A stretch of 9,561 nucleotides of DNA from a virus (IMGVR_UViG_2541047595_000019), one strand, 5' to 3'; positions 1 to 9,561 are shown, counted from the stretch's first letter. Notes: generated by a model from the letters alone, not told the origin. A program made the numbers and translations.

Positions 1-97
1 TTACAGGGAACATTCAACAATTTCGCTTTGATTTTTCCGATGCGGTGATGTGGGGTGATACAAAGTTACCCCATTTTTTTGGCATTCAGTGGAATGA

Positions 98-137
98 TTG
101 CGCATATTTGCGCACGTAAACAAACGGATATTATAAT
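98..137 (+). promoter_or_regulatory. Candidate sigma70 promoter with operator-like motif upstream of the alpA-like gene
   Basis: TTGCGCA occurs twice (98-104 and 108-114), separated by TAT, and the core TGCGCA is self-complementary. A TATAAT hexamer sits at 132-137, 18 bp downstream of the TTGCGC -35-like hexamer at 108-113. Identified by eye only. Confidence 0.3.
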
Positions 138-242
138 TTATCCATAGTGGGCGATCTGCAAACTATCTTCGATAATCTCTCAATCAAGCTATATCACCCG
201 CCGTTGTGCGTTTTTTCATCTTGAAAGAAAAAAGGTCAAGCC

Positions 243-443
243 ATGAAGAACATCAACCCCAAATTTATTAATTTGGCCCAGCTTATTGAGCTGACCAATA
301 TTAGCCGCAGCACCATTTATCGGCTATTACACACAGACCCGTTGTTTCCGCGCCCGTTTAAATTAAGAGGCGGTAATCGTCTTTACTGGAATATCGACGA
401 AGTAAACGACTACCTATCCAGCCAGGTAAAAGCCTATGCGTAA
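243..443 (+). CDS. alpA: AlpA-family (MerR-superfamily, excisionase-like) transcriptional regulator, 66 aa
   Basis: ATG at 243 with an AAGGT Shine-Dalgarno upstream. The translation has the AlpA/Xis-type HTH signature (LIELTNISRSTIYRLL ... FPRPFKLRGGNRLYW ... EV..YL). Family assignment is from motif recognition. Confidence 0.8.
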   Translation: MKNINPKFINLAQLIELTNISRSTIYRLLHTDPLFPRPFKLRGGNRLYWNIDEVNDYLSSQVKAYA

Positions 444-536
444 TCGTCAATTAACTGCATCCACCAGCCGCTAAGTTATTTAAACTTCTTCCTCTTTCTT
501 TCCTCCTGGTGGCGATCTTTTTTTATCGAGGTGGAA

Positions 537-770
537 ATGAAAGATAGCGAATTAATGACAGTAAACTTGCCACTTTCACTTGGCGTTACTCGACGGACGC
601 TATTCAGGTGGATGAGTAAGATTAAAAATTGGCCCGTTCCGGTGAGTCCGGTCGGTGCAAGAGTTAAGTTATCCGATCTGAGATTATGGAATTCTACAAA
701 AACAAAGGCGCTCGCCACCAATGAAAAACAGCAAATCACATTTTTAGGTAAACATCATGACCAATATTGA
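537..770 (+). CDS. Second AlpA/Xis-like HTH DNA-binding protein, 77 aa from ATG 537 (ORF track starts at GTG 531)
   Basis: Translation LSLGVTRRTLFRWMSKIKNWPVPVSPVGARVKLSDLRLW follows the same helix-turn-helix-plus-wing pattern as AlpA/excisionase proteins. GAGGTGG precedes the start. The 3' end overlaps the next gene by 14 nt. Confidence 0.55.
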   Translation: MKDSELMTVNLPLSLGVTRRTLFRWMSKIKNWPVPVSPVGARVKLSDLRLWNSTKTKALATNEKQQITFLGKHHDQY

Positions 771-1152
771 ACGATTAGATCGCTGCGCGGACATTATGCG
801 CCGCAGGTGGATTTATGACCCTGAATCAGGTTTATTATTCAGCCGTGAAGCGAAAGGCCCTGTAAAAGGCGGTATGACTAACAAGGGGCATCTGGTGGTA
901 AGCATACAGGAAGGCGATTTTAAGGTAACGCTCACCTATCAAAAAGCCTGCTACGTGTATGCATATGGCGCTTATGACGAGACATTGTACGAGGTCCACC
1001 ACATTAATCTGAACAAACAAGACAACCGCCTCAAGAATATTCGACTGATGACGAAAGAAATGCATCGTCGTATTCATAAAAACGTACGCAAGATAGCTCA
1101 GCTGGGCCACACGTACTGGCTTCAACCAGAAGCAATAGAACAATCGCTATAA
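757..1152 (+). CDS. HNH endonuclease (HNH_3/AP2-like homing-endonuclease type), 131 aa
   Basis: Motif EVHHINLNKQDNRLKNIRLMTKEMHRRIH matches the H-H...N...DNR..NLR..T...H HNH signature. The N-terminal GHLVVSIQEGDFKV...YVYAYG resembles the beta-hairpin DNA-binding part of free-standing HNH enzymes. AGGTAAA Shine-Dalgarno before ATG 757. Confidence 0.7.
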   Translation: MTNIERLDRCADIMRRRWIYDPESGLLFSREAKGPVKGGMTNKGHLVVSIQEGDFKVTLTYQKACYVYAYGAYDETLYEVHHINLNKQDNRLKNIRLMTKEMHRRIHKNVRKIAQLGHTYWLQPEAIEQSL

Positions 1153-1169
1153 ACACAGGAGAAACGACT

Positions 1170-1235
1170 ATGAGCAAATTTTGTTTTACCGGAACCAACG
1201 AAGAATTAATCGCCCAGCGGGCAGCAATTTTTTAA
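1170..1235 (+). CDS. Mini-ORF, 21 aa (MSKFCFTGTNEELIAQRAAIF), possibly a translationally coupled small protein
   Basis: Strong AGGAGA Shine-Dalgarno 7 nt upstream of ATG 1170. The stop at 1233-1235 sits 12 nt before the next start and inside its Shine-Dalgarno region. No family recognised. Confidence 0.25.
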   Translation: MSKFCFTGTNEELIAQRAAIF

Positions 1236-1247
1236 GGAAGAGGCAGC

Positions 1248-1583
1248 ATGAAAATCAAAGCAACCACAATTAACGAAAACAAAGAAATAACAGCAATCAA
1301 AGTAAAAGGAGTAGATGCCATGCATTCATTAGACAGTTATTTTCAGCGCACGACAGCCCCTAAATCAGCAGCCCAGGAACGCCGTGAGGAATTCCAGGAA
1401 AAAGTGATGCGTTCTGCTGATTATATTGCAGACAAGTTCGTGGAAACGGTTCGGCCACTTGTTGATGAAGTAGCTGATAAACTTCAGTCTGAAATGCCGG
1501 AAGACATGGAAGGCACTGCAAAGGCGCGACTTCTTTTTGAATTAAGTCGTCGTTTCGGCGTGTCAATTAGCACTTTTAAATAA
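1248..1583 (+). CDS. Hypothetical protein, 111 aa
   Basis: ATG 1248 preceded by AAGGAAGAGG. Uninterrupted ORF, tightly packed with its neighbours. No family recognised. Confidence 0.6.
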   Translation: MKIKATTINENKEITAIKVKGVDAMHSLDSYFQRTTAPKSAAQERREEFQEKVMRSADYIADKFVETVRPLVDEVADKLQSEMPEDMEGTAKARLLFELSRRFGVSISTFK

Positions 1584-1600
1584 TCGGAAGAGGAAAGACA

Positions 1601-2143
1601 ATGGACGCATTTGATGTACTGGCAAATAAAGGCGCGGAACTGGTAGAGCAGCGAAATAAATGCACCGACGAAGGTGGGCGCGCGCTGTTAAATAAACAGA
1701 TTAAAGCGATCCGTATGGCCCAATTTAAATTAATCAGCAATGAAGTTATCGAAACAATTAAACCGCAGATCCCACAAATCGTTGCTGACGCTATTAAAGC
1801 CGCCGGACTGGAGAAACGCATTGCCGGGCTGAAAACGAACGCAGAGAAAATGGAGATGCACAAACAGAGCGGTTCTCCGACTCCGGATGATTACTTCTCA
1901 CCGGATGCTGAGTTTATGGCGCAGGTTGAGGAACGTCTGGGTAGCTGTCTCACCGAGGAACAGCGTCGCTATTTTGATGTAGTGGATAGTGCGGCAGGTA
2001 TTGACCTGAACTCGTATTTCGGTCGTGAAATTGAGCATTTTGATGCCGCCCCGTCTATGCCAGAGCCAGAACCAGAGAGGGCCGCCGATCCTGAAGCTGA
2101 GCAACGGAAACGCGTATTCAATGCGATAGGGATTCGGTACTGA
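1601..2143 (+). CDS. Hypothetical acidic protein, 180 aa
   Basis: ATG 1601 preceded by GGAAGAGGAAAG. Acidic, proline/glutamate-rich C-terminus (PEPEPERAADPEAEQ). No family recognised. Confidence 0.65.
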   Translation: MDAFDVLANKGAELVEQRNKCTDEGGRALLNKQIKAIRMAQFKLISNEVIETIKPQIPQIVADAIKAAGLEKRIAGLKTNAEKMEMHKQSGSPTPDDYFSPDAEFMAQVEERLGSCLTEEQRRYFDVVDSAAGIDLNSYFGREIEHFDAAPSMPEPEPERAADPEAEQRKRVFNAIGIRY

Positions 2144-2157
2144 TCGGATAAAAGAAA

Positions 2158-2176
2158 GCCGGGGAATTACCCCGGC
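2158..2176. terminator. Perfect GC-rich hairpin (GCCGGGG-AATT-CCCCGGC); the U-tract is on the minus-strand side only
   Basis: A 7-8 bp perfect stem with a 4-nt loop, 15 nt after the stop of the 1601-2143 gene. On the + strand it is followed by AATGCGA, not a T-run. On the minus strand it is followed by TTTCTTTTAT. Confidence 0.35.
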
Positions 2177-2262
2177 AATGCGACCAATGAACAATCGGAT
2201 AAGAAGAAGCAGTTTTGAAACAATGTTCGGGAACTATATTAGCACAAGTCAGGAGAAACAGC

Positions 2263-2547
2263 ATGATGGCACTACGAGTGGTACAAGGCATCGCAAGAAC
2301 CGTCGCAGAGCGCGTGTCAGACCTGAAAAACTCTCCATTGAGCGAGCAACCTTTAAAGCGGCAAATGCTCCGCTTATGGGCAGAATACTCGCTTGGAACG
2401 ATTAACAAGCTCCTTGCCATGAAATCGGGGGATGGCAGGACCGCGGAGGAAAAGGAATTCATCAGGCGTTTAACCCTCACTCGCAGAGACATTCATAGCC
2501 AATTACGCAGCGTGGGGAGCGATATTGATGATGGGACGAACGATTAA
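2263..2547 (+). CDS. Hypothetical protein, 94 aa (ATG 2263 preferred over the TTG 2215 start in the track)
   Basis: AGGAGA Shine-Dalgarno at 2251-2256, 6 nt before a tandem ATG ATG at 2263. No family recognised. Confidence 0.55.
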   Translation: MMALRVVQGIARTVAERVSDLKNSPLSEQPLKRQMLRLWAEYSLGTINKLLAMKSGDGRTAEEKEFIRRLTLTRRDIHSQLRSVGSDIDDGTND

Positions 2548-2582
2548 TTTTCGGACAAGTACTATGCGCGCGCGAGGCAATC

Positions 2583-2801
2583 ATGAAGCAAGACATAGCG
2601 GAAAGGCTGGAGATACTCGAAAACCAGCGAGAAGAAGCCAGACAGATGCGCAGGGAGGCAAATAAAGAGGGCCGGAAAAAAGATGCATGGCATCTGAGAC
2701 AATTCATCAACTTTACAAACCGTTGCATCCGGGAGTGCTACATGGAAGACGCAGAAAACTGGCTGGATTCCTTGCCAGAAAAGCACGGAACAGAGCGATG
2801 A
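2583..2801 (+). CDS. Hypothetical charged protein, 72 aa
   Basis: ATG 2583 preceded by GAGG. Its stop lies 21 nt before the next start. No family recognised. Confidence 0.5.
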   Translation: MKQDIAERLEILENQREEARQMRREANKEGRKKDAWHLRQFINFTNRCIRECYMEDAENWLDSLPEKHGTER

Positions 2802-2822
2802 TTGTTAGACGAAGGGGGTTAC

Positions 2823-3266
2823 ATGCCGATGAGACACCAGGCTGTCATTGAGCAGATCAAGCGGGAGCTAAGGGAACAAATCAAAGAGATTAGAGAGGAT
2901 GCGGCTACGGCGGCGTATGCAATCGGGATGGAAGTAATTGCCAATGCAGCAGTAGAAACGCCACGCGATACAGGGACGCTGATCGGTGGCTATTACGATC
3001 CGCAGGTAAGCCAGGATGATGAAGGTGTGCATTGCACGGTAGGAAACACGGTCCGCTATGCATATTGGGTGCATGAAATGCCGGGGACACTGAAAGGACA
3101 ACCGCGCGAACATTTCGGTAAGACGCGGGAAGGTATCGCATTTGGCGGCGGCACTGGCAGGGGTAACTATTGGGACCCGGACGCCGATCCTAAATTCCTT
3201 GAGCGGGCACTTAACGACCACAAAGCGGAGTATATGGATATAGCGATGAGATATCTTAAGAGGTAA
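2823..3266 (+). CDS. HK97 gp10-like phage virion component (head-tail joining / tail-component family), 147 aa from ATG 2823
   Basis: GAAGGGGG Shine-Dalgarno 4 nt before ATG 2823. Blocks ETPRDTGTLIGG, VGNTVRYAYWVHEMPG and KFLERALNDHK resemble the conserved TG-L, V-YA-YVEFG and PFL-PAL blocks of HK97 gp10-family proteins. This is from memory and is a moderate-confidence family call. Confidence 0.55.
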   Translation: MPMRHQAVIEQIKRELREQIKEIREDAATAAYAIGMEVIANAAVETPRDTGTLIGGYYDPQVSQDDEGVHCTVGNTVRYAYWVHEMPGTLKGQPREHFGKTREGIAFGGGTGRGNYWDPDADPKFLERALNDHKAEYMDIAMRYLKR

Positions 3267-3272
3267 GAAGAG

Positions 3273-5462
3273 ATGAGCGAGCAAGTCGGAAGCCTTCAGA
3301 TAGAGATTGACCTGAAGACAAAAAATTTACTGGTATCACAACGCCATGCTGAAAACGCGCTGGATGATATTGGCAATAAGATTGGCGGCGCAGAGCGACA
3401 AGCAGCAAAACTTAACACGCAGCTAACAAAAACATCGCGCGCTATTAGCGGCAATCTGCGTGCCGGATTCCAGCAGGCTGGATACCAGATTCAGGACTTC
3501 GTGGTGCAGGTCCAGTCAGGACAAAGCGCACTGATAGCGTTGTCACAGCAAGGCAGCCAGTTATTGAGTGCCTTCGGTGGCTGGGGTATTGCACTTGGTG
3601 CGGCGCTTACAGTTGGTGTATCGCTGTTTAAAGCCCTGACAGGTGAAACCGAGGAGACAACAGACAAGACCGAAGTATTTGAAAAGGCTTGCAGTAATTT
3701 ACGCCAGGTAATGGCCCTGAACGAGCAAGGCGTAAACGTCCTGTCAAACGAATACGCCAACCTCGCGAAACAGTCAGCCGAGGCCGCTGCGATGGTCGAA
3801 CGACATTTAACACTGAAACTACGCGAAGCCAAATCAGCGATGAGTGTCTATATCACCAATACACTGGACGCCCAAAACGCGACTGCGGGTTTTGGGATGA
3901 TTGGATCTGACAGTTTACTCGACATGATGCAGGCGATGCGTGCGCTGGGCGTTGAAACGTATGATTACGCCGACGCAATGGACCAGTTGAACGACATGGG
4001 CCTACGTGGTGCGCAGATCCATAAAGAGCTAAACCGCGAACTTGATGATATGGCAGATAAAACTGGCGTATCAAAAGAAGCGCTCTTTGATATGTGCCAG
4101 GAATTAATGGCGGTCGCTAAAGCGCCGACAGCGGACAGCATTTCAGCACTATCAAACCGCATTGCCAGCATGAACCCTACGACAGCGGAAGGTGTTGGCC
4201 TGTTTAATGAACTACAGCAGGCATTGATTAAAGCCGCTATTGAGCTTCAACAGTTCGGGGATATTAGCGAAGATACCGCCAATAAACTTGATGTATTAAA
4301 TCACGCGGCGGATTCTCAATGGGTGAAAGACTTTACAGAAAACATAAAGATGCAAACAAAGGCATTGGGAGCTTCACGCGGCGAAATCATGCGGTTACAG
4401 CTTGAGAATAAGAACCTTACAGTAGAAGAACGCGCCAATGCTGAACAGGCAATCAAGAATTACGAAGATAAACAAAATCGACTTGAACAAGAGAAAGAAG
4501 CGAAACGCCAGGCACTGGCAGCAGAACGCGCCGCCACCGCAGAACGCAAACGCCTGATGCGTGAAGAAGAGCAGGAGCGGAAACGCATTGAGCGTGAGAA
4601 AGAACAGCGCGAGCGCCAGACAAAACAAGCGAAACGCTTCACTGACCAGATCGAAACCAACTATCTGACAACCGTCAATCCGGCGACAGGTCAGGCAGAA
4701 AATCCGCTGGCAGCAATTCAGGCGCAACAGCAACGTGAATTCGAAATGCTGGAAATGTATCGCCAGCAGAATTTAGTCAGTGAGCAGCAATACCGTAACG
4801 CCCTGGAAAACATTATTAACACGTCAGCCATGCGCGTAGCAGCCATCGAGCAACAACAGGCGAGCGAATACAGTAAGAACATTCAGGGATTGATGAGCGC
4901 ATATAGCGGCATGTTTGGCGAGCTTGCTGGCGTTATTTCTGATGGTGCGGGCGAGCAGAGTGCAGCATATCGTGCGATGTTTGCAGTACAGAAAGGTTTT
5001 GCAATGGCATCCGCAGCATTGAGCCTTCAGGAGTCACTAGCGAAGGCTAACTCGCTCCCATTCCCGGCTAATATTCCGGCCTATGCGCAAGCATTAACAG
5101 CAGGTACGCAGATCATTTCAGCCATTCGCGGCATAGCTTTTGGTGGCGGTCGCTACAACGGAGGGGTGGTTGATTCGGGTAAATTCTATCGTGTCGGTGA
5201 GTCCAACAAGCCTGAGCTGTTTCAATCCGGTGGGCGACAGTACATGATTCCTGGTGAGGGCGGCAGGATTATCCCCAACCGCGATATTGGTGGCAGTGGT
5301 GGCGGCATCACACTGAACGTAACAAACAACATCCAGGCGACAAACGGCTGGACTGAAGACGACTCAAAAGCGTTGCAACAGACTATAGAAAACACAGCAA
5401 TGCGCCTGATGCAGCGCGAGTCGCAAAGACCTGGAGGCATGTTACAACCACGGCGGCGTTAA
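3273..5462 (+). CDS. Phage tail tape measure protein, lambda gpH-like, 729 aa
   Basis: AAGAGG Shine-Dalgarno before ATG 3273. The N-terminus (MSEQVGSLQIEIDL ... QVQSGQSALIALSQQGSQLLSAFGGWGIALGAAL) parallels lambda gpH (MAEPVGDLVVDL ... QLAGGQSPWLILLQQGGQVKDSFGG). The C-terminus is glycine-rich (AFGGGRYNGGVVDSGKFYRVGESNKPELF ... GGSGGG) like the lambda tape measure C-terminal domain. The centre is a long helical, highly charged ruler-like region. Confidence 0.85.
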   Translation: MSEQVGSLQIEIDLKTKNLLVSQRHAENALDDIGNKIGGAERQAAKLNTQLTKTSRAISGNLRAGFQQAGYQIQDFVVQVQSGQSALIALSQQGSQLLSAFGGWGIALGAALTVGVSLFKALTGETEETTDKTEVFEKACSNLRQVMALNEQGVNVLSNEYANLAKQSAEAAAMVERHLTLKLREAKSAMSVYITNTLDAQNATAGFGMIGSDSLLDMMQAMRALGVETYDYADAMDQLNDMGLRGAQIHKELNRELDDMADKTGVSKEALFDMCQELMAVAKAPTADSISALSNRIASMNPTTAEGVGLFNELQQALIKAAIELQQFGDISEDTANKLDVLNHAADSQWVKDFTENIKMQTKALGASRGEIMRLQLENKNLTVEERANAEQAIKNYEDKQNRLEQEKEAKRQALAAERAATAERKRLMREEEQERKRIEREKEQRERQTKQAKRFTDQIETNYLTTVNPATGQAENPLAAIQAQQQREFEMLEMYRQQNLVSEQQYRNALENIINTSAMRVAAIEQQQASEYSKNIQGLMSAYSGMFGELAGVISDGAGEQSAAYRAMFAVQKGFAMASAALSLQESLAKANSLPFPANIPAYAQALTAGTQIISAIRGIAFGGGRYNGGVVDSGKFYRVGESNKPELFQSGGRQYMIPGEGGRIIPNRDIGGSGGGITLNVTNNIQATNGWTEDDSKALQQTIENTAMRLMQRESQRPGGMLQPRRR

Positions 5463-5466
5463 CCAA

Positions 5467-5631
5467 ATCCCACGCCAGGGGGATAGACTGGCGGACCCTT
5501 CCCGGTTCTATGCGAAAAATCCCTCACAATTACCCTGCTAATTTGCCAGATTTCACGTACACACGCCAAACAAAAGCCCAGGCAGTTAGCAACCTACCCA
5601 GGCCTTTCTCACAATCCCCGCCGATATTATA
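5467..5631. repeat. Direct repeat copy A (~165 bp), immediately after the tape measure stop codon
   Basis: Near-identical to 8341-8551. The core ATAGACTGGCGGACCCTTCCCG...GAAAAATCCCTCACAATTACCCTGC.AATTTGCCAGATTTCACGTACAC.CGCC ... AGTTAGCAACCTACCCAGGCCTTTCTCACAATC.CCCGCCGATATTATA matches with a handful of substitutions, offset exactly 2880 bp. Confidence 0.85.
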
Positions 5632-5672
5632 ACCGCCATTCCCTGGTTTTATCATTTGTTGCCCAGCCTGCC

Positions 5673-5686
5673 ATTTGTAGACAAAT
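5673..5686. promoter_or_regulatory. Operator-like perfect palindrome ATTTGT-AG-ACAAAT
   Basis: 6-bp inverted arms around a 2-bp centre, about 90 bp upstream of the candidate promoter for the 5810 gene. CATTTGT is also present at 5653-5659. Confidence 0.3.
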
Positions 5687-5774
5687 CCCATCACACATAA
5701 ATCATCAACCAATAAATTGACCTAAATCATTTTATCAGTCGCTTAACCAGGTGTATTTTGTAGTCAAACAAGGG

Positions 5775-5801
5775 TTGACAAGGTTTAGCAACAAATATGA
5801 G
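5775..5801 (+). promoter_or_regulatory. Candidate promoter: TTGACA (5775-5780) and TATGAG (5796-5801) ahead of ATG 5810
   Basis: Consensus -35 hexamer. The -10-like hexamer is 15 bp downstream, which is a short spacer, and overlaps the GAGGTG Shine-Dalgarno. Confidence 0.3.
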
Positions 5802-5809
5802 GTGAAATC

Positions 5810-5998
5810 ATGAAACACGATAGAGCGGAAATTATCTTCGATATGGTGCGTGAAAGAGTGTGCGCTATGGATACTAAGATTGCACTGATAAGAGCGGGCG
5901 TGCCAGCAACTGCACAAGAACTACTGGTACTAATAGAAAGGCGTGAATACGAGCTAAGCAAAGCCAAAAGAGCATTTGCATTAATATACGCAAAATAA
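5810..5998 (+). CDS. Hypothetical small protein, 62 aa
   Basis: ATG 5810 preceded by GAGGTGAAATC. By eye it uses codons that are rare in enterobacteria (AGA, ATA, CTA), suggesting foreign origin. No family recognised. Confidence 0.55.
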   Translation: MKHDRAEIIFDMVRERVCAMDTKIALIRAGVPATAQELLVLIERREYELSKAKRAFALIYAK

Positions 5999-6265: not shown

Positions 6266-6288
6266 ACCCGGCCCCGCGCCGGGTTTTT
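6266..6288 (+). terminator. Rho-independent terminator (CCCGGC-CCCGC-GCCGGG followed by TTTTT)
   Basis: 6-bp GC stem, 5-nt loop and a T5 run, 18 nt after the stop at 6246-6248. The 22-nt core is identical to 7861-7882. Confidence 0.7.
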
Positions 6289-7112: not shown

Positions 7113-7138
7113 GCCCAGCCATAGCGCTGGGTTTTTTT
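7113..7138 (+). terminator. Rho-independent terminator (CCCAGC-CATAGC-GCTGGG followed by TTTTTTT)
   Basis: GC stem plus a T7 run, about 45 nt after the stop at 7066-7068. Confidence 0.65.
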
Positions 7139-7191: not shown

Positions 7192-7302
7192 TGATATTAA
7201 CGCAGCGTTTTGATAACCATTCAGTTAAGAATCGCAACAACTAAAGGAGGTGATAAAGGCTGGCGAGCCGTTGCCCTATGGCAGCAAAACGGGAGCAACA
7301 AC

Positions 7303-7854
7303 ATGTTTGACTTGGTACAGGTTGATAGCGAGTGGCGCATTAGTAGTCTTGAGTTGTTGGACTTGGTTAATCAGATTCGTGTGGCTGAAGGTCTTAACAA
7401 ACTGCCGCCGAACAGATTCAACAAGAAAATTAAAGACGAGCTTGAAGGTGAAAGTCTCTACTGGCATAAAATGCGCATTAATATAAATCAACAACTTACA
7501 AAAGAAGTTGAGATTTGTGAACTCACTGGAGACCAGGCTTTAAGAGTGGGGATGCGCGAATTTAAGCGTGTCAGGGCAAAAGTAGTAGAACGAATCAACC
7601 AATTGCGATTGGAGGTATCGCAGTACAAACTGATTCAACAATGCGCAGACAAGGCAGATCAGGCGGTAGCGTTAGCCAACGAAGGCAAGTTAAACGAAGT
7701 AGCGGATCTCATTGTGATAGCGAAACGCGAGTATCTACCGCTATCAAGCGCGGCAGGTAAAACGCTAAATAGGTGTAGACCGACGAAACGCAAACTGAAC
7801 CAGTCGGAAAACTATATTGGTAGTCTTCTTCAAATCGACTTGTTCCCTGAGTGA
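7303..7854 (+). CDS. Hypothetical protein, 183 aa from ATG 7303; possible phage regulatory (Rha/antirepressor-like) protein
   Basis: GGGAG Shine-Dalgarno 7 nt before ATG 7303. The track's 7210 start is TTG with no Shine-Dalgarno. The N-terminal WRISSLELLDLVNQIRVAEGLNKL is reminiscent of Rha-type phage regulators, but the match is weak. Confidence 0.55.
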   Translation: MFDLVQVDSEWRISSLELLDLVNQIRVAEGLNKLPPNRFNKKIKDELEGESLYWHKMRININQQLTKEVEICELTGDQALRVGMREFKRVRAKVVERINQLRLEVSQYKLIQQCADKADQAVALANEGKLNEVADLIVIAKREYLPLSSAAGKTLNRCRPTKRKLNQSENYIGSLLQIDLFPE

Positions 7855-7860
7855 TAGTTC

Positions 7861-7882
7861 ACCCGGCCCCGCGCCGGGTTTT
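7861..7882 (+). terminator. Rho-independent terminator, identical core to 6266-6287 (ACCCGGCCCCGCGCCGGGTTTT)
   Basis: Same stem-loop followed by TTTT, 7 nt after the stop at 7852-7854. Confidence 0.7.
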
Positions 7883-8100
7883 AATGCCATCATTATTAAA
7901 TCTATTAATGCTCATTAAACCATAATTAGCATAACTTATAATCGAACAAAAATCACACAAATCAGATAATGATTTTTTCTGGTTATACTTATCTAAAAAA
8001 GTGGTATAGGATGTAACTTATTATTTTGTAAGGGCAAATTTATTGCGTGGCCAGATGAACAGGCTTGCGCACCTCCCGAAAAACACGCGAAAATCTAAGT

Positions 8101-8210
8101 GTTCTTTCTTTTTTTGTTTTTATTTTTTCATTTTCTCTTTCTTCTCTTTTCCGGTTTCTCTTCTTTCTGGTTTTGGTTTTTTCCTTTTTATTTTTATTCT
8201 TTCTTACCGT
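8101..8210. repeat. Low-complexity polypyrimidine (T/C) tract, ~110 nt
   Basis: By manual count about 96 of 110 bases are T or C, with roughly 5 A and 9 G. There is no regular periodicity. It sits in an AT-rich non-coding spacer (7883-8340). Confidence 0.8.
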
Positions 8211-8340
8211 TGGGGTAAAAACACCAAAACATTTTCGCCACAAAAGCATTAATTTCATCCTGCCAGACCAATCATTTTCACCGGATACACAGCCGGATAT
8301 AATCTCACTAACACCACACCACCCCGCACCACACCTGATA

Positions 8341-8551
8341 AATCCCGTATTCAGGAAGGGGAATAGACTGGCGGACCCTTCCCGCTTCTACATGAAAAAT
8401 CCCTCACAATTACCCTGCCAATTTGCCAGATTTCACGTACACGCGCCTATATCCCCGCTACCGGATACGCGCCGCTTATACCGGATAAACAAAGGCCCAG
8501 GTAGTTAGCAACCTACCCAGGCCTTTCTCACAATCACCCGCCGATATTATA
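8341..8551. repeat. Direct repeat copy B (~210 bp), carrying a 39-bp insertion (8448-8486) relative to copy A
   Basis: Aligns with 5467-5631. The insertion TATATCCCCGCTACCGGATACGCGCCGCTTATACCGGAT contains two CCGGATA motifs. Confidence 0.85.
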
Positions 8552-8670
8552 TCACCCACCCTGCCGTTTTCAGGCGGGAGGTGAATAGCCGTCACTTGTT
8601 GCATAATTGATTAATTTCCGACCAATTAAATTAACTCCCACCAATACACGCTAGATGGGAGGTGGATTTT

Positions 8671-8742
8671 GTGACGCAGATCACTTTCTCTATTCCTGCA
8701 TTTTTGTTTAATTCAATCAACGGAAGGCAACTCCCAGGCTGA
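8671..8742 (+). CDS. Mini-ORF, 23 aa (GTG start; TQITFSIPAFLFNSINGRQLPG), speculative
   Basis: GGGAGGTG Shine-Dalgarno 6 nt before GTG 8671. The upstream motif TAGATGGGAGGTG (8652-8664) is repeated exactly at 8748-8760. Confidence 0.2.
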   Translation: MTQITFSIPAFLFNSINGRQLPG

Positions 8743-8765
8743 AAGGATAGATGGGAGGTGAAATC

Positions 8766-8828
8766 ATGAAGCGGTGGGAAGTGATTTTACTGATGGTGAT
8801 GATGTTTGTTATGTGCGTGGAGTATTAA
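8766..8828 (+). CDS. Mini-ORF encoding a 20-aa hydrophobic peptide (MKRWEVILLMVMMFVMCVEY)
   Basis: GGGAGGTG Shine-Dalgarno 5 nt before ATG 8766. The stop at 8826-8828 overlaps the Shine-Dalgarno of the next gene. Composition resembles small membrane toxin or leader peptides. Confidence 0.3.
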   Translation: MKRWEVILLMVMMFVMCVEY

Positions 8829-8839
8829 GGGGGGCAATT

Positions 8840-9019
8840 ATGGAACGCTTTATCAATAAACTACTGATTGTTGTTATCGCAATAGCGATCTTCGTATGGG
8901 TGGGCGTGCTGTTTAGCCAGTTTCCTGATGCTATGCGGTTAATTCAGATCGAGGGACAACGCGCTTTTATCCCTGGCTGGCGCGTGATTTACGAATTAAT
9001 CCGCTGGTTTGCAGCTTGA
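8840..9019 (+). CDS. Small membrane protein, 59 aa, one predicted transmembrane helix
   Basis: TAAGGGGGGCA Shine-Dalgarno context before ATG 8840 (the track starts at an upstream GTG). The hydrophobic helix is LLIVVIAIAIFVWVGVLF. Confidence 0.5.
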   Translation: MERFINKLLIVVIAIAIFVWVGVLFSQFPDAMRLIQIEGQRAFIPGWRVIYELIRWFAA

Positions 9020-9033
9020 ATAAGGGGGGCACT

Positions 9034-9561
9034 ATGAACAGAGAAAAGACATTCCCGGAAATGCTGGAAGAGGCAGCGATTAACAGCCTGGCTATTGCAG
9101 ACACTAAGGAATTAATGACGTTCACCAAGCGCCAGATAACCGCAATTATGCAGATGCCGAGTATTAGCGAGGAACCTGCGACGGCACACGCTATGGCTAT
9201 CCATACGCTCACAATGGCGACTTACCTTTGGTTGTATAGCGACTTCGGGTTGCAGCCAGTCGATGCAGACGATCGCGAGTTATTCGCTGTGGATGTTGAC
9301 GACGTACACGCCGTACTGATGCCGCTAAATGTTCTGGTTGGCTGGATTTACCACAATAGCGTCGAGGCGGTTTGCAGGGCGAAAGCGGGAAATCCTGGTG
9401 GAACTGACTGGCGGTTACTGTTCCGGCAAATGACTTTAGAGCAGTTCATCGACGACAAATATGGACTATCACACGACATTGCTGATGCTCTTTACGAAGC
9501 AATGAAAGAAGGCGCAACAGCCGCGCTAAATGGCAACCTGGCAGCACCGACTATTCACTGA
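9034..9561 (+). CDS. Hypothetical protein, 175 aa
   Basis: ATG 9034 preceded by the same TAAGGGGGGCA context 5 nt upstream. The ORF ends with TGA at the window edge. No family recognised. Confidence 0.6.
   Translation: MNREKTFPEMLEEAAINSLAIADTKELMTFTKRQITAIMQMPSISEEPATAHAMAIHTLTMATYLWLYSDFGLQPVDADDRELFAVDVDDVHAVLMPLNVLVGWIYHNSVEAVCRAKAGNPGGTDWRLLFRQMTLEQFIDDKYGLSHDIADALYEAMKEGATAALNGNLAAPTIH

What the first reader, a model, noticed from the sequence alone, without database searches (positions are those of the whole stretch)
8652..8828. Tandem mini-ORFs behind a duplicated TAGATGGGAGGTG initiation motif, one encoding a 20-aa hydrophobic peptide
The 13-nt motif occurs at 8652-8664 and 8748-8760, each time 5-6 nt before a start codon (GTG 8671 and ATG 8766). 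The second peptide, MKRWEVILLMVMMFVMCVEY, is a single hydrophobic stretch ending in tyrosine, like small type I toxins (Ibs-like) or membrane-active leader peptides. Its stop overlaps the Shine-Dalgarno of the next gene, a 59-aa membrane protein. Inference: a small membrane-toxin or leader-peptide regulatory unit. Alternatively the motifs are not translated.
Basis: partly seen in the sequence, partly recalled or inferred. Interest (0 to 1): 0.5.

Follow-up and report, generated by a model that had tools for sequence, protein, structure and literature searches.

The report
Conserved 20-codon membrane-peptide gene, hairpin RBS
The second mini-ORF is a real, conserved but unannotated 20-amino-acid hydrophobic peptide gene that heads the accessory-gene operon of CPZ-55-type prophage-like islands of E. 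coli (K-12 included), whereas the first "mini-ORF" is not a gene: its GTG lies inside a CRP-binding site.

Summary
The sequence facts hold: TAGATGGGAGGTG is at 8652-8664 and 8748-8760, followed by GTG 8671 and ATG 8766. The window is a CPZ-55-type island, which in E. coli sits between eutB and eutA.

The 20-codon ORF (8766-8828) recurs in 12 distinct nucleotide alleles, always 19-20 codons. pN/pS is 0.34, against 0.89 and 2.26 in the other frames. It precedes at least five unrelated downstream genes. A copy lies unannotated in K-12 MG1655 (2,563,518-2,563,580, between yffP and yffQ).

ORF1 (GTG 8671) is broken early in 4 of 8 alleles. Its GTG belongs to a CRP box (8670-8685) whose K-12 homologue binds CRP in vitro at 2.3 nM.

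Each motif copy is the 3' arm of a stem-loop, CTCCCA-loop-TGGGAG. The upstream copy is a hairpin abutting the CRP box. The downstream copy carries the peptide gene's Shine-Dalgarno sequence inside an anti-SD hairpin. GATGGGAG recurs, on one strand only, before other cistrons in K-12-type cargo arms.

No Ibs similarity, no conserved antisense promoter and no terminator after the ORF, so a type I toxin is not supported. Best reading: a tiny membrane protein, first cistron of a CRP-dependent operon. Translation and function are untested.

The parts
8487..8538 (.). Terminator hairpin that closes the tape-measure operon. It is more stable on the minus strand.
   Evidence: Fold energy is -25.7 kcal/mol on the minus strand against -17.3 on the plus strand. 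The same asymmetry holds in K-12 and in L026, whose stem sequence is unrelated. The K-12 copy is called as a minus-strand terminator. Duplicated at 5568-5619 (D3).
8546..8573 (-). Promoter-like site CTGAAA-16-TATAAT with a TG extension, reading leftwards. Possible source of a roughly 50-nt RNA ending at the hairpin above.
   Evidence: 10 of 12 matches, also found in K-12. RpoD holoenzyme genomic SELEX places a site in the K-12 yffP-yffQ spacer; that paper assigned it to the plus strand (PMC3946193).
8571..8583 (+). Degenerate third copy of the motif (CAGGCGGGAGGTG), with a complementary CCCACCC/CCTGCC box just upstream.
   Evidence: helix 1: 87.5% of cells paired.
8633..8664 (+). Repeat unit 1: CTCCCA (8635-8640), loop, then motif copy 1 (8652-8664). 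A hairpin followed by ATTTTG, abutting the CRP box. Upstream of the inferred promoter.
   Evidence: A hairpin is predicted in 7 of 7 variant-A alleles, at -9 to -15 kcal/mol. The outer stem pairs differ between alleles but stay paired. The layout matches terminator + TTTT + CRP box upstream of K-12 yffS.
8670..8685 (.). CRP box TGTGACGCAGATCACT.
   Evidence: 9 of 10 match to TGTGA-N6-TCACA (sequence). The K-12 homologue at 2,563,424-439 is a CRP site with Kd 2.3 nM in Footprint-seq (PMC12871828). yffQ is in the CRP genomic-SELEX target list (PMC3105977). Among the best conserved columns of the variant-A alignment.
8671..8742 (+). First 'mini-ORF' (23 codons): not a gene.
   Evidence: The aligned frame is open for 23, 25, 51, 2, 9, 80, 80 and 9 codons in eight alleles.
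8707..8719 (+). Inferred -10 hexamer TTTAAT (8707-8712) and transcription start near 8719, giving class II CRP geometry.
   Evidence: The hexamer starts 29.5 nt from the box centre (8677.5). This block is invariant in 8 alleles. The start site is inferred, not mapped.
8729..8760 (+). Repeat unit 2: anti-SD CTCCCA (8731-8736), loop, then motif copy 2, whose GGAGGT (8754-8759) is the Shine-Dalgarno sequence of the peptide gene.
   Evidence: Folding 8719-8790 gives an SD-occluding hairpin plus a second hairpin over the AUG. Energy is -19.1 kcal/mol, z -3.66, 0 of 200 shuffles as stable. Helix 3 is 76.6% paired across alleles.
8766..8828 (+). Gene for the 20-aa hydrophobic peptide MKRWEVILLMVMMFVMCVEY.
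   Evidence: 12 nucleotide alleles with no stop or frameshift. pN/pS is 0.34 in frame against 0.89 and 2.26 off frame. M1, W4, E5 and M13 are invariant among the 19-20-aa alleles; M1 and M13 also hold in the aligned 40-aa paralogue. The hydrophobic core is kept despite up to 21 nt differences. A 40-aa paralogue is annotated in SC423.
8840..9019 (+). 59-aa single-helix membrane protein; orphan cargo gene.
   Evidence: apart from itself, only one marginal hit (E 2.6e-4) among 1.84 billion representatives. No family hits. Absent from LC-1302, where the peptide gene abuts the 175-aa gene.
9034..9561 (+). 175-aa cargo protein, E. coli only, function unknown.
   Evidence: 4 clusters. No family hits. 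AlphaFold model pLDDT 43.7.
5477..5809 (+). Earlier copy of the same leader (variant B), lacking the peptide gene. Its RBS and ATG are fused directly to a 62-aa gene.
   Evidence: (D2 and D3, 92-94% identity). Compare L019, where the peptide ORF sits between this RBS and the 62-aa gene.

Best explanation
The region is the regulatory head of an accessory-gene operon in a CPZ-55-type integrated island of E. coli.

A CRP box at 8670-8685 and a -10 element at 8707-8712 form what looks like a class II cAMP-CRP-dependent promoter. Transcripts would start near 8719 and carry a roughly 47-nt leader. In that leader, CUCCCA (8731-8736) pairs with UGGGAG of the strong Shine-Dalgarno sequence GGGAGGUG (8753-8760).

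The first cistron (8766-8828) encodes a 20-residue peptide. It has a basic/aromatic head (MKRWE), a 13-residue hydrophobic core and an acidic C-terminus. Most probably it is a small inner-membrane protein whose sequence, not merely its translation, is under selection. The anti-SD hairpin, together with a second stem over the AUG, limits its translation. Its stop lies 11 nt before the next start, so whatever cargo follows is probably translationally coupled to it.

The upstream copy of the 13-nt motif is the 3' arm of a sister hairpin that lies just before the CRP box. It probably acts as a terminator-like insulator against read-through from the tape-measure operon. The GTG after it is part of the CRP half-site, not a start codon.

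Shown here by computation: the repeats and their complementarity; conservation and purifying selection on the 20-codon ORF; decay of ORF1; homology of the CRP box to a K-12 site that binds CRP in vitro.

Inferred: the transcription start; CRP dependence in vivo; translation of the ORF; membrane insertion; hairpin throttling; coupling; what the peptide does.
For: Context. The window is a CPZ-55-type island, which in E. coli lies between eutB and eutA.

The ORF is coding.
- 12 nucleotide alleles are all 19-20 codons, with three synonymous Arg codons and three Leu codons in use. pN/pS is 0.34 in frame against 0.89 and 2.26 off frame.
- Random mutants carrying the same number of changes (19-21 nt) keep an open hydrophobic ORF in only 0.2-0.3% of trials.
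- The ORF stays put while the following gene changes: a 59-aa protein, a 175-aa protein, yffQ, a 67-aa protein, a 62-aa protein.
- A 40-aa paralogue with the same C-terminal segment is annotated and has several alleles.

K-12 has the ORF, unannotated, at 2,563,518-2,563,580.

CRP promoter. The K-12 site has Kd 2.3 nM and yffQ is a SELEX target. The box and the -10 element are the most conserved blocks of the leader. Their spacing fits a site centred at -41.5 (sequence; established class II geometry).

Hairpins.
- 84% of cells are paired, against 33-50% when the 3' partners are slid.
- The window leader folds with z -3.66.
- The upstream hairpin is predicted in 7 of 7 alleles.
- An analogous terminator + TTTT + CRP box layout precedes yffS.

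Reiterated motif. GATGGGAG occurs 30 times on the plus strand and 3 times on the minus strand across 15 loci. Most cargo-arm copies (those inside yffS included) lie 6-9 nt before a start codon, usually with TCCCA upstream.

ORF1 is broken in 4 of 8 alleles.
Against: - There is no direct evidence of translation. The ORF is absent from the one ribosome-profiling supplement that could be searched, and CPZ-55 may simply be silent under laboratory conditions.
- The transcription start is unmapped; two TSS supplements held no entry.
- The hydrophobic core is only 13-15 residues, which is short for a membrane span.
- Hairpin support is complementarity rather than covariation. Shuffle controls are not significant. 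The 290-nt leader as a whole is no more stable than shuffles (z +0.27). The SD-occluding fold is significant only in the window allele. Variant B and C leaders lack the anti-SD box yet keep the ORF.
- The ORF is dispensable in some islands. It is precisely deleted in the window's first leader copy, it is absent from FDA1284, MARGA_3 and KCTC 2571, and MB52 has an ATT start.
- Part of the conservation of codons 4-6 (TGGGAAGTG) could reflect RNA pairing rather than protein function.
Confidence: 0.6

Rival explanations
1. Type I toxin-antitoxin module. On this view the 20-aa peptide is an Ibs-like membrane-depolarising toxin held in check by a cis-encoded antisense RNA and by SD sequestration.
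For: The peptide has the length and hydrophobic character of Ibs or ShoB-type toxins, with an aromatic or aliphatic C-terminus (sequence). Its SD is sequestered by an upstream anti-SD box, as in many type I toxin mRNAs. One minus-strand promoter-like site lies inside the ORF in the window (8812-8784, 9 of 12 matches).
Against: There is no Pfam or NCBIfam match to any toxin family at E up to 1. The antisense promoter match is weak, does not exceed chance, and is absent from the K-12 and C7 alleles. There is no terminator after the ORF, and the next cistron starts 10-12 nt (19 nt in two alleles) later in every locus. Natural deletions of the ORF leave no orphan antitoxin signature.
Confidence: 0.1
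2. Purely regulatory upstream ORF. On this view only the act of translating the 20 codons matters, for example by opening structure for the next cistron or by shielding the transcript from Rho. The peptide itself would have no function.
For: The ORF belongs to the conserved leader rather than to the variable cargo, and always ends 10-19 nt before the next start, usually 10-12. Its SD and AUG lie in predicted hairpins. Some islands do without it.
Against: The amino-acid sequence is constrained, with pN/pS 0.34. M1, W4, E5 and M13 are invariant among the short alleles, there is an acidic residue at position 19, and every core substitution stays hydrophobic. A 40-aa paralogue keeps the same C-terminal segment with different nucleotides. 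There is no conserved run of regulatory codons and no terminator or anti-terminator after the ORF.
Confidence: 0.15
3. The repeated GATGGGAG hairpins are recognition sites for a dedicated trans-acting factor. This could be an RNA-binding translational regulator or nuclease, or a DNA-binding protein of the island. The mini-ORF would be just one of several cistrons under that control. This is compatible with the ORF being real.
For: The 8-mer is exact, strand-specific (30 plus against 3 minus) and reiterated 4-6 times per K-12-type locus, 4-5 of them in the cargo arm. It occurs in front of unrelated cistrons and inside yffS before an in-frame GTG. The GAT prefix is conserved even where the 5' arm cannot pair with it.
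Against: No candidate RNA-binding protein was identified in the island. GGAGGTGA is simply an extended Shine-Dalgarno sequence, so selection for strong ribosome binding plus duplication could explain much of the pattern. Loop length varies (11-16 nt), and the motif is absent from variant B and C islands.
Confidence: 0.1
4. Nothing here is translated. On this view the conservation of 8766-8828 reflects RNA or DNA constraints, such as pairing of GGUGGGAAGUG with the CUCCCA boxes, or recombination junctions.
For: Codons 4-6 show no synonymous change and resemble the motif. K-12 and whole-leader folds pair the anti-SD box with this segment.
Against: Synonymous variation is abundant elsewhere in the ORF (pS 0.40). 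The reading frame and length are kept through 33 variable sites. The off-frame pN/pS values are about 1 or above.
Confidence: 0.05

Closest known systems
Small (50 aa or fewer) hydrophobic inner-membrane proteins of E. coli found by RBS and conservation screens (Hemm/Storz-type small proteins such as YohP, KdpF, CydX, AcrZ; from my own knowledge)
   Same: A short ORF with a strong SD, one hydrophobic helix-like segment with charged ends, and sequence conservation. It was missed by annotation because of its size. It can be the first cistron of an operon, as kdpF is.
   Different: At 20 aa it is at the extreme low end of size, with a 13-15-residue core. It is confined to a mobile island of E. 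coli. There is no experimental detection, and no partner protein or phenotype is known.
Ibs/Sib and other type I toxin-antitoxin systems
   Same: An 18-30-aa hydrophobic peptide, with an SD hidden by an upstream complementary sequence.
   Different: There is no sequence similarity, no conserved antisense RNA gene and no terminator of its own. The ORF is operonic with the downstream cargo.
Class II CRP-dependent promoters (site centred at -41.5, for example galP1; established knowledge)
   Same: A near-consensus TGTGA-N6-TCACT box lies 29.5 nt before a -10-like hexamer, with no -35 element. The homologous K-12 site binds CRP at nanomolar affinity in vitro.
   Different: The start site and CRP dependence in vivo are not shown for this promoter.
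SD-sequestering leader hairpins (anti-SD translational attenuators, RNA thermometers)
   Same: A CUCCCA box pairs with UGGGAG of the SD 11-16 nt downstream. The same design is repeated before several cistrons.
   Different: No ligand, temperature response or trans factor is known. Covariation is weak, and the hairpin is absent from variant B and C leaders.
P1/P7 c4 and P4 CI antisense-RNA immunity (repeated complementary boxes in a leader that controls a small coupled ORF)
   Same: Repeated short complementary boxes lie in a prophage or satellite leader upstream of a small first ORF. This resemblance is recalled from memory only.
   Different: There is no Rfam C4 or other RNA family match at E up to 1. 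The boxes here are cis hairpins rather than targets of a processed RNA.

Membership tests
Type I toxin (Ibs-like) with antisense antitoxin | Sequence membership of a known toxin family (Ibs, Ldr, Hok, TisB and others) | tested here: not met
   No Pfam or NCBIfam hit at E up to 1 for the 20-aa and 40-aa peptides.
Type I toxin (Ibs-like) with antisense antitoxin | A cis-encoded antisense RNA gene overlapping or adjacent to the toxin ORF | tested here: not met
   The only minus-strand promoter-like site in the ORF (window 8812-8784, 9 of 12 matches) is not found in K-12 or C7. Site counts do not exceed shuffles. Weak promoters could be missed.
Type I toxin (Ibs-like) with antisense antitoxin | A stand-alone toxin transcript with its own terminator | tested here: not met
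   The next cistron starts 10-12 nt (19 nt in two alleles) after the stop in all loci, and there is no terminator between them.
Type I toxin (Ibs-like) with antisense antitoxin | Toxicity or membrane depolarisation on expression | not testable with these tools
   Needs inducible expression in vivo.
Bacterial small membrane proteins (50 aa or fewer) | A conserved short ORF with an SD and start codon, under purifying selection | tested here: met
   12 alleles; pN/pS 0.34 in frame against 0.89 and 2.26 off frame; GGAGGT lies 6 nt before the ATG.
Bacterial small membrane proteins (50 aa or fewer) | A hydrophobic segment long enough to span or embed in the membrane | tested here: inconclusive
   The residue 6-18 core has mean Kyte-Doolittle hydropathy 2.95-3.58 in all alleles. 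It is only 13-15 residues long.
Bacterial small membrane proteins (50 aa or fewer) | The protein is detected and fractionates with the membrane | not testable with these tools
   Not found in the searchable ribosome-profiling supplement. No other data could be reached.
Attenuator-type leader peptide | A conserved run of regulatory codons, and a terminator/anti-terminator between the leader ORF and the structural genes | tested here: not met
   M13 is the only invariant internal Met, and there is no conserved codon run. Only 11 nt separate the stop from the next ATG, and no terminator lies there.
Class II CRP-dependent promoter | A CRP consensus box that binds cAMP-CRP | tested here: met
   The window box TGTGACGCAGATCACT matches the consensus at 9 of 10 positions. 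The homologous K-12 box has Kd 2.3 nM in Footprint-seq, and yffQ is listed in CRP SELEX. Binding to the window sequence itself was not measured.
Class II CRP-dependent promoter | Box centred at -41.5 from a mapped start site, with CRP-dependent transcription | not testable with these tools
   The geometry is inferred from the conserved TTTAAT at 8707-8712. The TSS supplements held no entry.
Rfam RNA families (including C4 antisense RNA and known leaders) | A covariance-model match | tested here: not met
   No match at E up to 1 anywhere in the window.

The most novel reading that the evidence does not exclude
The 20-aa peptide would be a new class of island-encoded small membrane effector, for example a superinfection-exclusion or host-membrane modulator switched on by cAMP-CRP. 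The reiterated GAUGGGAG stem-loops would form a dedicated post-transcriptional control system, with a trans-acting factor or a temperature or relay switch, that governs every cistron of the K-12-type cargo arm. This would include an internal start inside yffS.
Probability: 0.15. Interest if true: 0.65.

Novelty: new member of a known kind. Interest (0 to 1): 0.42.

Why it matters
The result adds a conserved, apparently unannotated 20-codon gene to E. coli K-12 MG1655, in the yffP-yffQ spacer of the CPZ-55 prophage. It also gives a reason for an orphan high-affinity CRP site that was recently mapped there.

It shows that CPZ-55-type islands carry a fixed module upstream of a highly variable cargo slot: leader, hairpin RBS and mini-protein gene. 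That is a handle for studying how these islands express and exchange accessory genes.

All the tests can be done directly in K-12. The finding does not overturn any concept: small hydrophobic proteins, SD-occluding hairpins and CRP promoters are all known kinds.

Tried and rejected
- Rfam scan of the whole window at E up to 1: nothing.
- Phage collection: megablast, blastn and tblastn with the leader and the peptide found no match.
- Species-representative genomes: the leader pattern occurs only in E. coli.
- Pfam, PHROGs, NCBIfam and PADLOC on the peptide, the 59-aa protein, the 175-aa protein and the other cargo proteins: no informative hits.
- HMMER search of the 59-aa protein against 1.84 billion representatives: itself plus one marginal hit at E 2.6e-4.
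- AlphaFold model of the 175-aa protein: pLDDT 43.7, so no fold search was run.
- Literature: no paper holds the K-12 peptide sequence. The ORF is not in the Stringer 2021 supplement or the Weaver 2019 text. The Meydan 2019 supplement is not held. The Cappable-seq and SMRT-Cappable-seq supplements have no TSS entry for the region.
- Whole-leader fold (290 nt): z +0.27, so one large stable RNA is rejected.
- A long ORF fusing ORF1 to the peptide gene is rejected. It occurs in RM10042, and a frame-shifted variant in an SW07164-like allele (P0010).
- A lipoprotein signal peptide is rejected. Cys17 is not invariant, and the residues before it do not fit a lipobox.
- My contiguous-stem statistic with G-U pairs allowed proved non-discriminating, because 32% of control windows reach 6 bp. 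It is not used as evidence.

Full report
**1. What the window is**

The right end of the window matches E. coli chromosomes at one place only: an island inserted between eutB and eutA. In K-12 that island is the annotated cryptic prophage CPZ-55.

Related islands are about 7-12 kb. They carry the integrase intZ, small HTH proteins, an HNH protein, an HK97 gp10-like protein and, in many strains, a roughly 730-aa tape-measure protein. A variable set of small 'hypothetical' genes then runs up to eutA.

The window holds the same parts:
- an AlpA-like HTH (243-443);
- an HNH protein (757-1152);
- a Neck1/gp10-like protein (2802-3266);
- a tape-measure protein (3273-5462).

The finding lies in the non-coding stretch that follows the tape-measure gene and precedes the variable genes.

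**2. The observation**

GGGGGG and the ATG at 8840 of a 59-aa hydrophobic protein follow.

The repeat is not chance. An exact 13-mer pair within 150 nt arises in 2.3% of order-1 Markov simulations. The repeat extends to 32 nt (D10). Both copies persist in diverged homologues.

The unit is therefore a stem-loop, and the 13-mer is its 3' arm.

**3. The leader and its variants**

About 370 nt after the tape-measure gene (after yffP in K-12) is a conserved leader. It occurs twice in this window, at 5477-5619 and 8357-8538 (92-94% identity). The two copies bracket a 2.9-kb block of genes.

The 200 nt nearest the first cargo gene come in at least three versions.
- Variant A is found at window 8540-8765 and in K-12, RM10042, FDA1284, SW07164, MB52, MARGA_3, KCTC 2571 and SC423. 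It carries the motif copies.
- Variants B and C do not carry them.

In species-representative genomes the leader was found only in E. coli. It is not in the phage collection.

**4. The second mini-ORF is a gene**

I recovered 12 distinct nucleotide alleles from complete genomes and metagenomes, plus one with an ATT start. The evidence for coding is as follows.
- All alleles are 19-20 codons.
- M1, W4, E5 and M13 are invariant among these alleles. K2, R3, V6, L8, L9 and an acidic residue at position 19 are nearly so.
- Every substitution in residues 6-18 stays hydrophobic.
- Arg3 uses CGC, CGG and CGT, and Leu8 uses CTA, TTA and TTG.
- Mean pN/pS is 0.34 in frame, against 0.89 and 2.26 in the other frames. 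The other frames carry 61 and 8 stops.
- With 19-21 nucleotide differences from the window allele, only 0.2-0.3% of random mutants would keep an open hydrophobic ORF of this length.

The ORF is found behind leader variants A, B and C and ahead of at least five unrelated genes. It therefore belongs to the conserved head of the operon, not to the cargo.

A 40-aa paralogue in strain SC423 shares the C-terminal segment (LEVIGVLVMMLVMCCEF). It is annotated by PGAP and has several alleles of its own.

K-12 MG1655 has the ORF (MKRWEVALLVMVMLVCCIEL) at 2,563,518-2,563,580, 11 nt before yffQ. Nothing is annotated there. I found no mention of it in the searchable literature.

**5. The first mini-ORF is not a gene**

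The frame aligned to GTG 8671 is open for 23, 25, 51, 2, 9, 80, 80 and 9 codons in eight variant-A alleles.

Its first codons are conserved for another reason: TGTGACGCAGATCACT (8670-8685) is a CRP box. The K-12 homologue (TGTGATGCAGATCGCT, 2,563,424-439) is listed among novel high-affinity CRP sites, with Kd 2.3 nM and yffQ as the associated gene, in a 2026 Footprint-seq preprint (PMC12871828). yffQ is also among the CRP genomic-SELEX targets (PMC3105977).

The box and a TTTAAT hexamer (8707-8712) are the best conserved blocks of the variant-A leader. The hexamer starts 29.5 nt from the box centre. That is the geometry of a class II CRP promoter with a start near 8719. This rests on established knowledge of class II promoters; the start itself is inferred.

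**6. What the two motif copies do**

Downstream copy.
- It lies in the inferred 47-nt 5' UTR, and its GGAGGT is the peptide gene's Shine-Dalgarno sequence.
- Folding 8719-8790 gives a CUCCCA:UGGGAG stem over the SD and a second stem over the AUG. Energy is -19.1 kcal/mol, z -3.66.
- Other alleles keep the complementarity, sometimes with G-U pairs, but their folds are not significant.

Upstream copy.
- It lies before the promoter.
- Its hairpin is predicted in 7 of 7 alleles, at -9 to -15 kcal/mol.
- The outer pairs differ between SW07164, MARGA_3 and SC423 yet stay paired.
- It is followed by AUUUUGU, which runs into the CRP box.
- In K-12, the CRP box upstream of yffS is preceded in the same way by a canonical terminator whose T-run merges into the box.
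- I therefore read the upstream copy as a terminator-like insulator. This is an inference.

Caveats on the structures.
- The named hairpins are paired in 84% of cells, against 33-50% for slid controls. They show almost no covariation, and the shuffle controls are not exceeded.
- RNAalifold prefers a nested alternative with one covarying pair (3 GC, 3 AU, 1 UG).
- Alternative pairings among these near-identical boxes are therefore possible but unresolved.
- The whole 290-nt leader is not unusually stable.

**7. The motif is reiterated in the family**

- GATGGGAG occurs 30 times on the plus strand and 3 times on the minus strand of 15 loci, but only in K-12-type arms.
- In K-12 it sits at five places: the insulator hairpin, the peptide SD, the yffS SD, and two places inside yffS. 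One of those is 8 nt before an in-frame GTG.
- In SC423 it precedes four successive annotated starts by 6-8 nt.
- Most copies have TCCCA or CTCCCA 13-17 nt upstream.

This is either a repeatedly duplicated strong RBS with a built-in anti-SD, or a site for an unknown factor.

**8. Comparison with known kinds**

- Ibs or type I toxin membership fails on sequence, antisense gene and transcript architecture.
- An attenuator-type leader peptide fails on codon runs and on the absence of a terminator.
- The closest kind is the class of small hydrophobic membrane proteins of enterobacteria. Here the gene is placed as first cistron of a CRP-controlled operon with an SD-occluding leader.

**9. What remains unknown**

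Still open are whether the ORF is translated, where the peptide goes and what it does. The ORF is dispensable in some islands: it is precisely deleted in the window's first leader copy and absent from FDA1284, MARGA_3 and KCTC 2571. The neighbouring 59-aa and 175-aa proteins are orphans, so the surrounding genes give no functional clue.

Noticed in passing
window 5477-5619 and 8357-8538 (with 5620-5809 against 8539-8765): The leader that follows the tape-measure gene is present twice (92-94% identity), bracketing a 2.9-kb gene block. This gives two tandem cargo slots. No complete E. coli genome covers 80% or more of the window, so the arrangement is unusual.
   Followed up: partly
window 5795-5815 (compare L019 4000-4100): In the first leader copy the peptide gene is precisely deleted. 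Its RBS and ATGAA are joined to the 62-aa gene (GAGGTGAAATCATGAA|ACACGATAG). In other strains the 20-codon ORF sits between them.
   Followed up: yes
window 8487-8573, minus strand (K-12 L004 5945-6034): Candidate small RNA of roughly 50-55 nt. A conserved TG-extended TATAAT promoter reads leftwards into a hairpin that is 7-11 kcal/mol more stable on the minus strand in three alleles, one with an unrelated stem, and is followed by a U-run. RpoD holoenzyme SELEX places a site in this K-12 spacer.
   Followed up: partly
window 8826-8842 and 9021-9036: The junction TAAGGGGGGCA(A/C)T(T)ATG is repeated before the 59-aa and 175-aa genes. Strain LC-1302 lacks the 59-aa gene exactly between these repeats. 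Cistrons therefore seem to be gained and lost by recombination at shared RBS junctions.
   Followed up: partly
L004 (K-12) 7212-7229, 7642-7660 and 7702: yffS has the same CTCCCA...GATGGGAG hairpin RBS. It also carries two internal copies of the motif, one 8 nt before an in-frame GTG at codon 144, which may be an internal start. A second high-affinity CRP site lies upstream of yffS, directly after a terminator.
   Followed up: partly
L018 (strain SC423) 4110-4232: A 40-aa annotated paralogue of the peptide (MGIRNNAGWWRKFKHFHPEIGLVLEVIGVLVMMLVMCCEF). Three small genes follow, each behind a GATGGGAGATGAA(T/A)T(T/C)ATG site.
   Followed up: partly
window 8040-8260: A roughly 200-nt polypyrimidine (T/C-rich) tract with internal degenerate repeats. 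It generates spurious long ORFs on both strands.
   Followed up: no
window 6266-6287 and 7861-7882 (also 7114-7135): Two identical 22-nt terminator hairpins, ACCCGGCCCCGCGCCGGGTTTT, follow successive cargo genes. The K-12 yffR-yffS spacer has a near-identical one.
   Followed up: no
window 1-5462 and related loci L001, L002: The island encodes a full-length tape-measure protein and an HK97 gp10-like connector protein, but no capsid or terminase genes were seen in the stretches examined. It keeps intact ORFs across many strains, which looks more like a phage satellite than a decaying prophage.
   Followed up: no
L025 (strain MB52) about 3220: This allele of the peptide gene has ATT in place of ATG. 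It is either a rare start codon or a recent inactivation.
   Followed up: no
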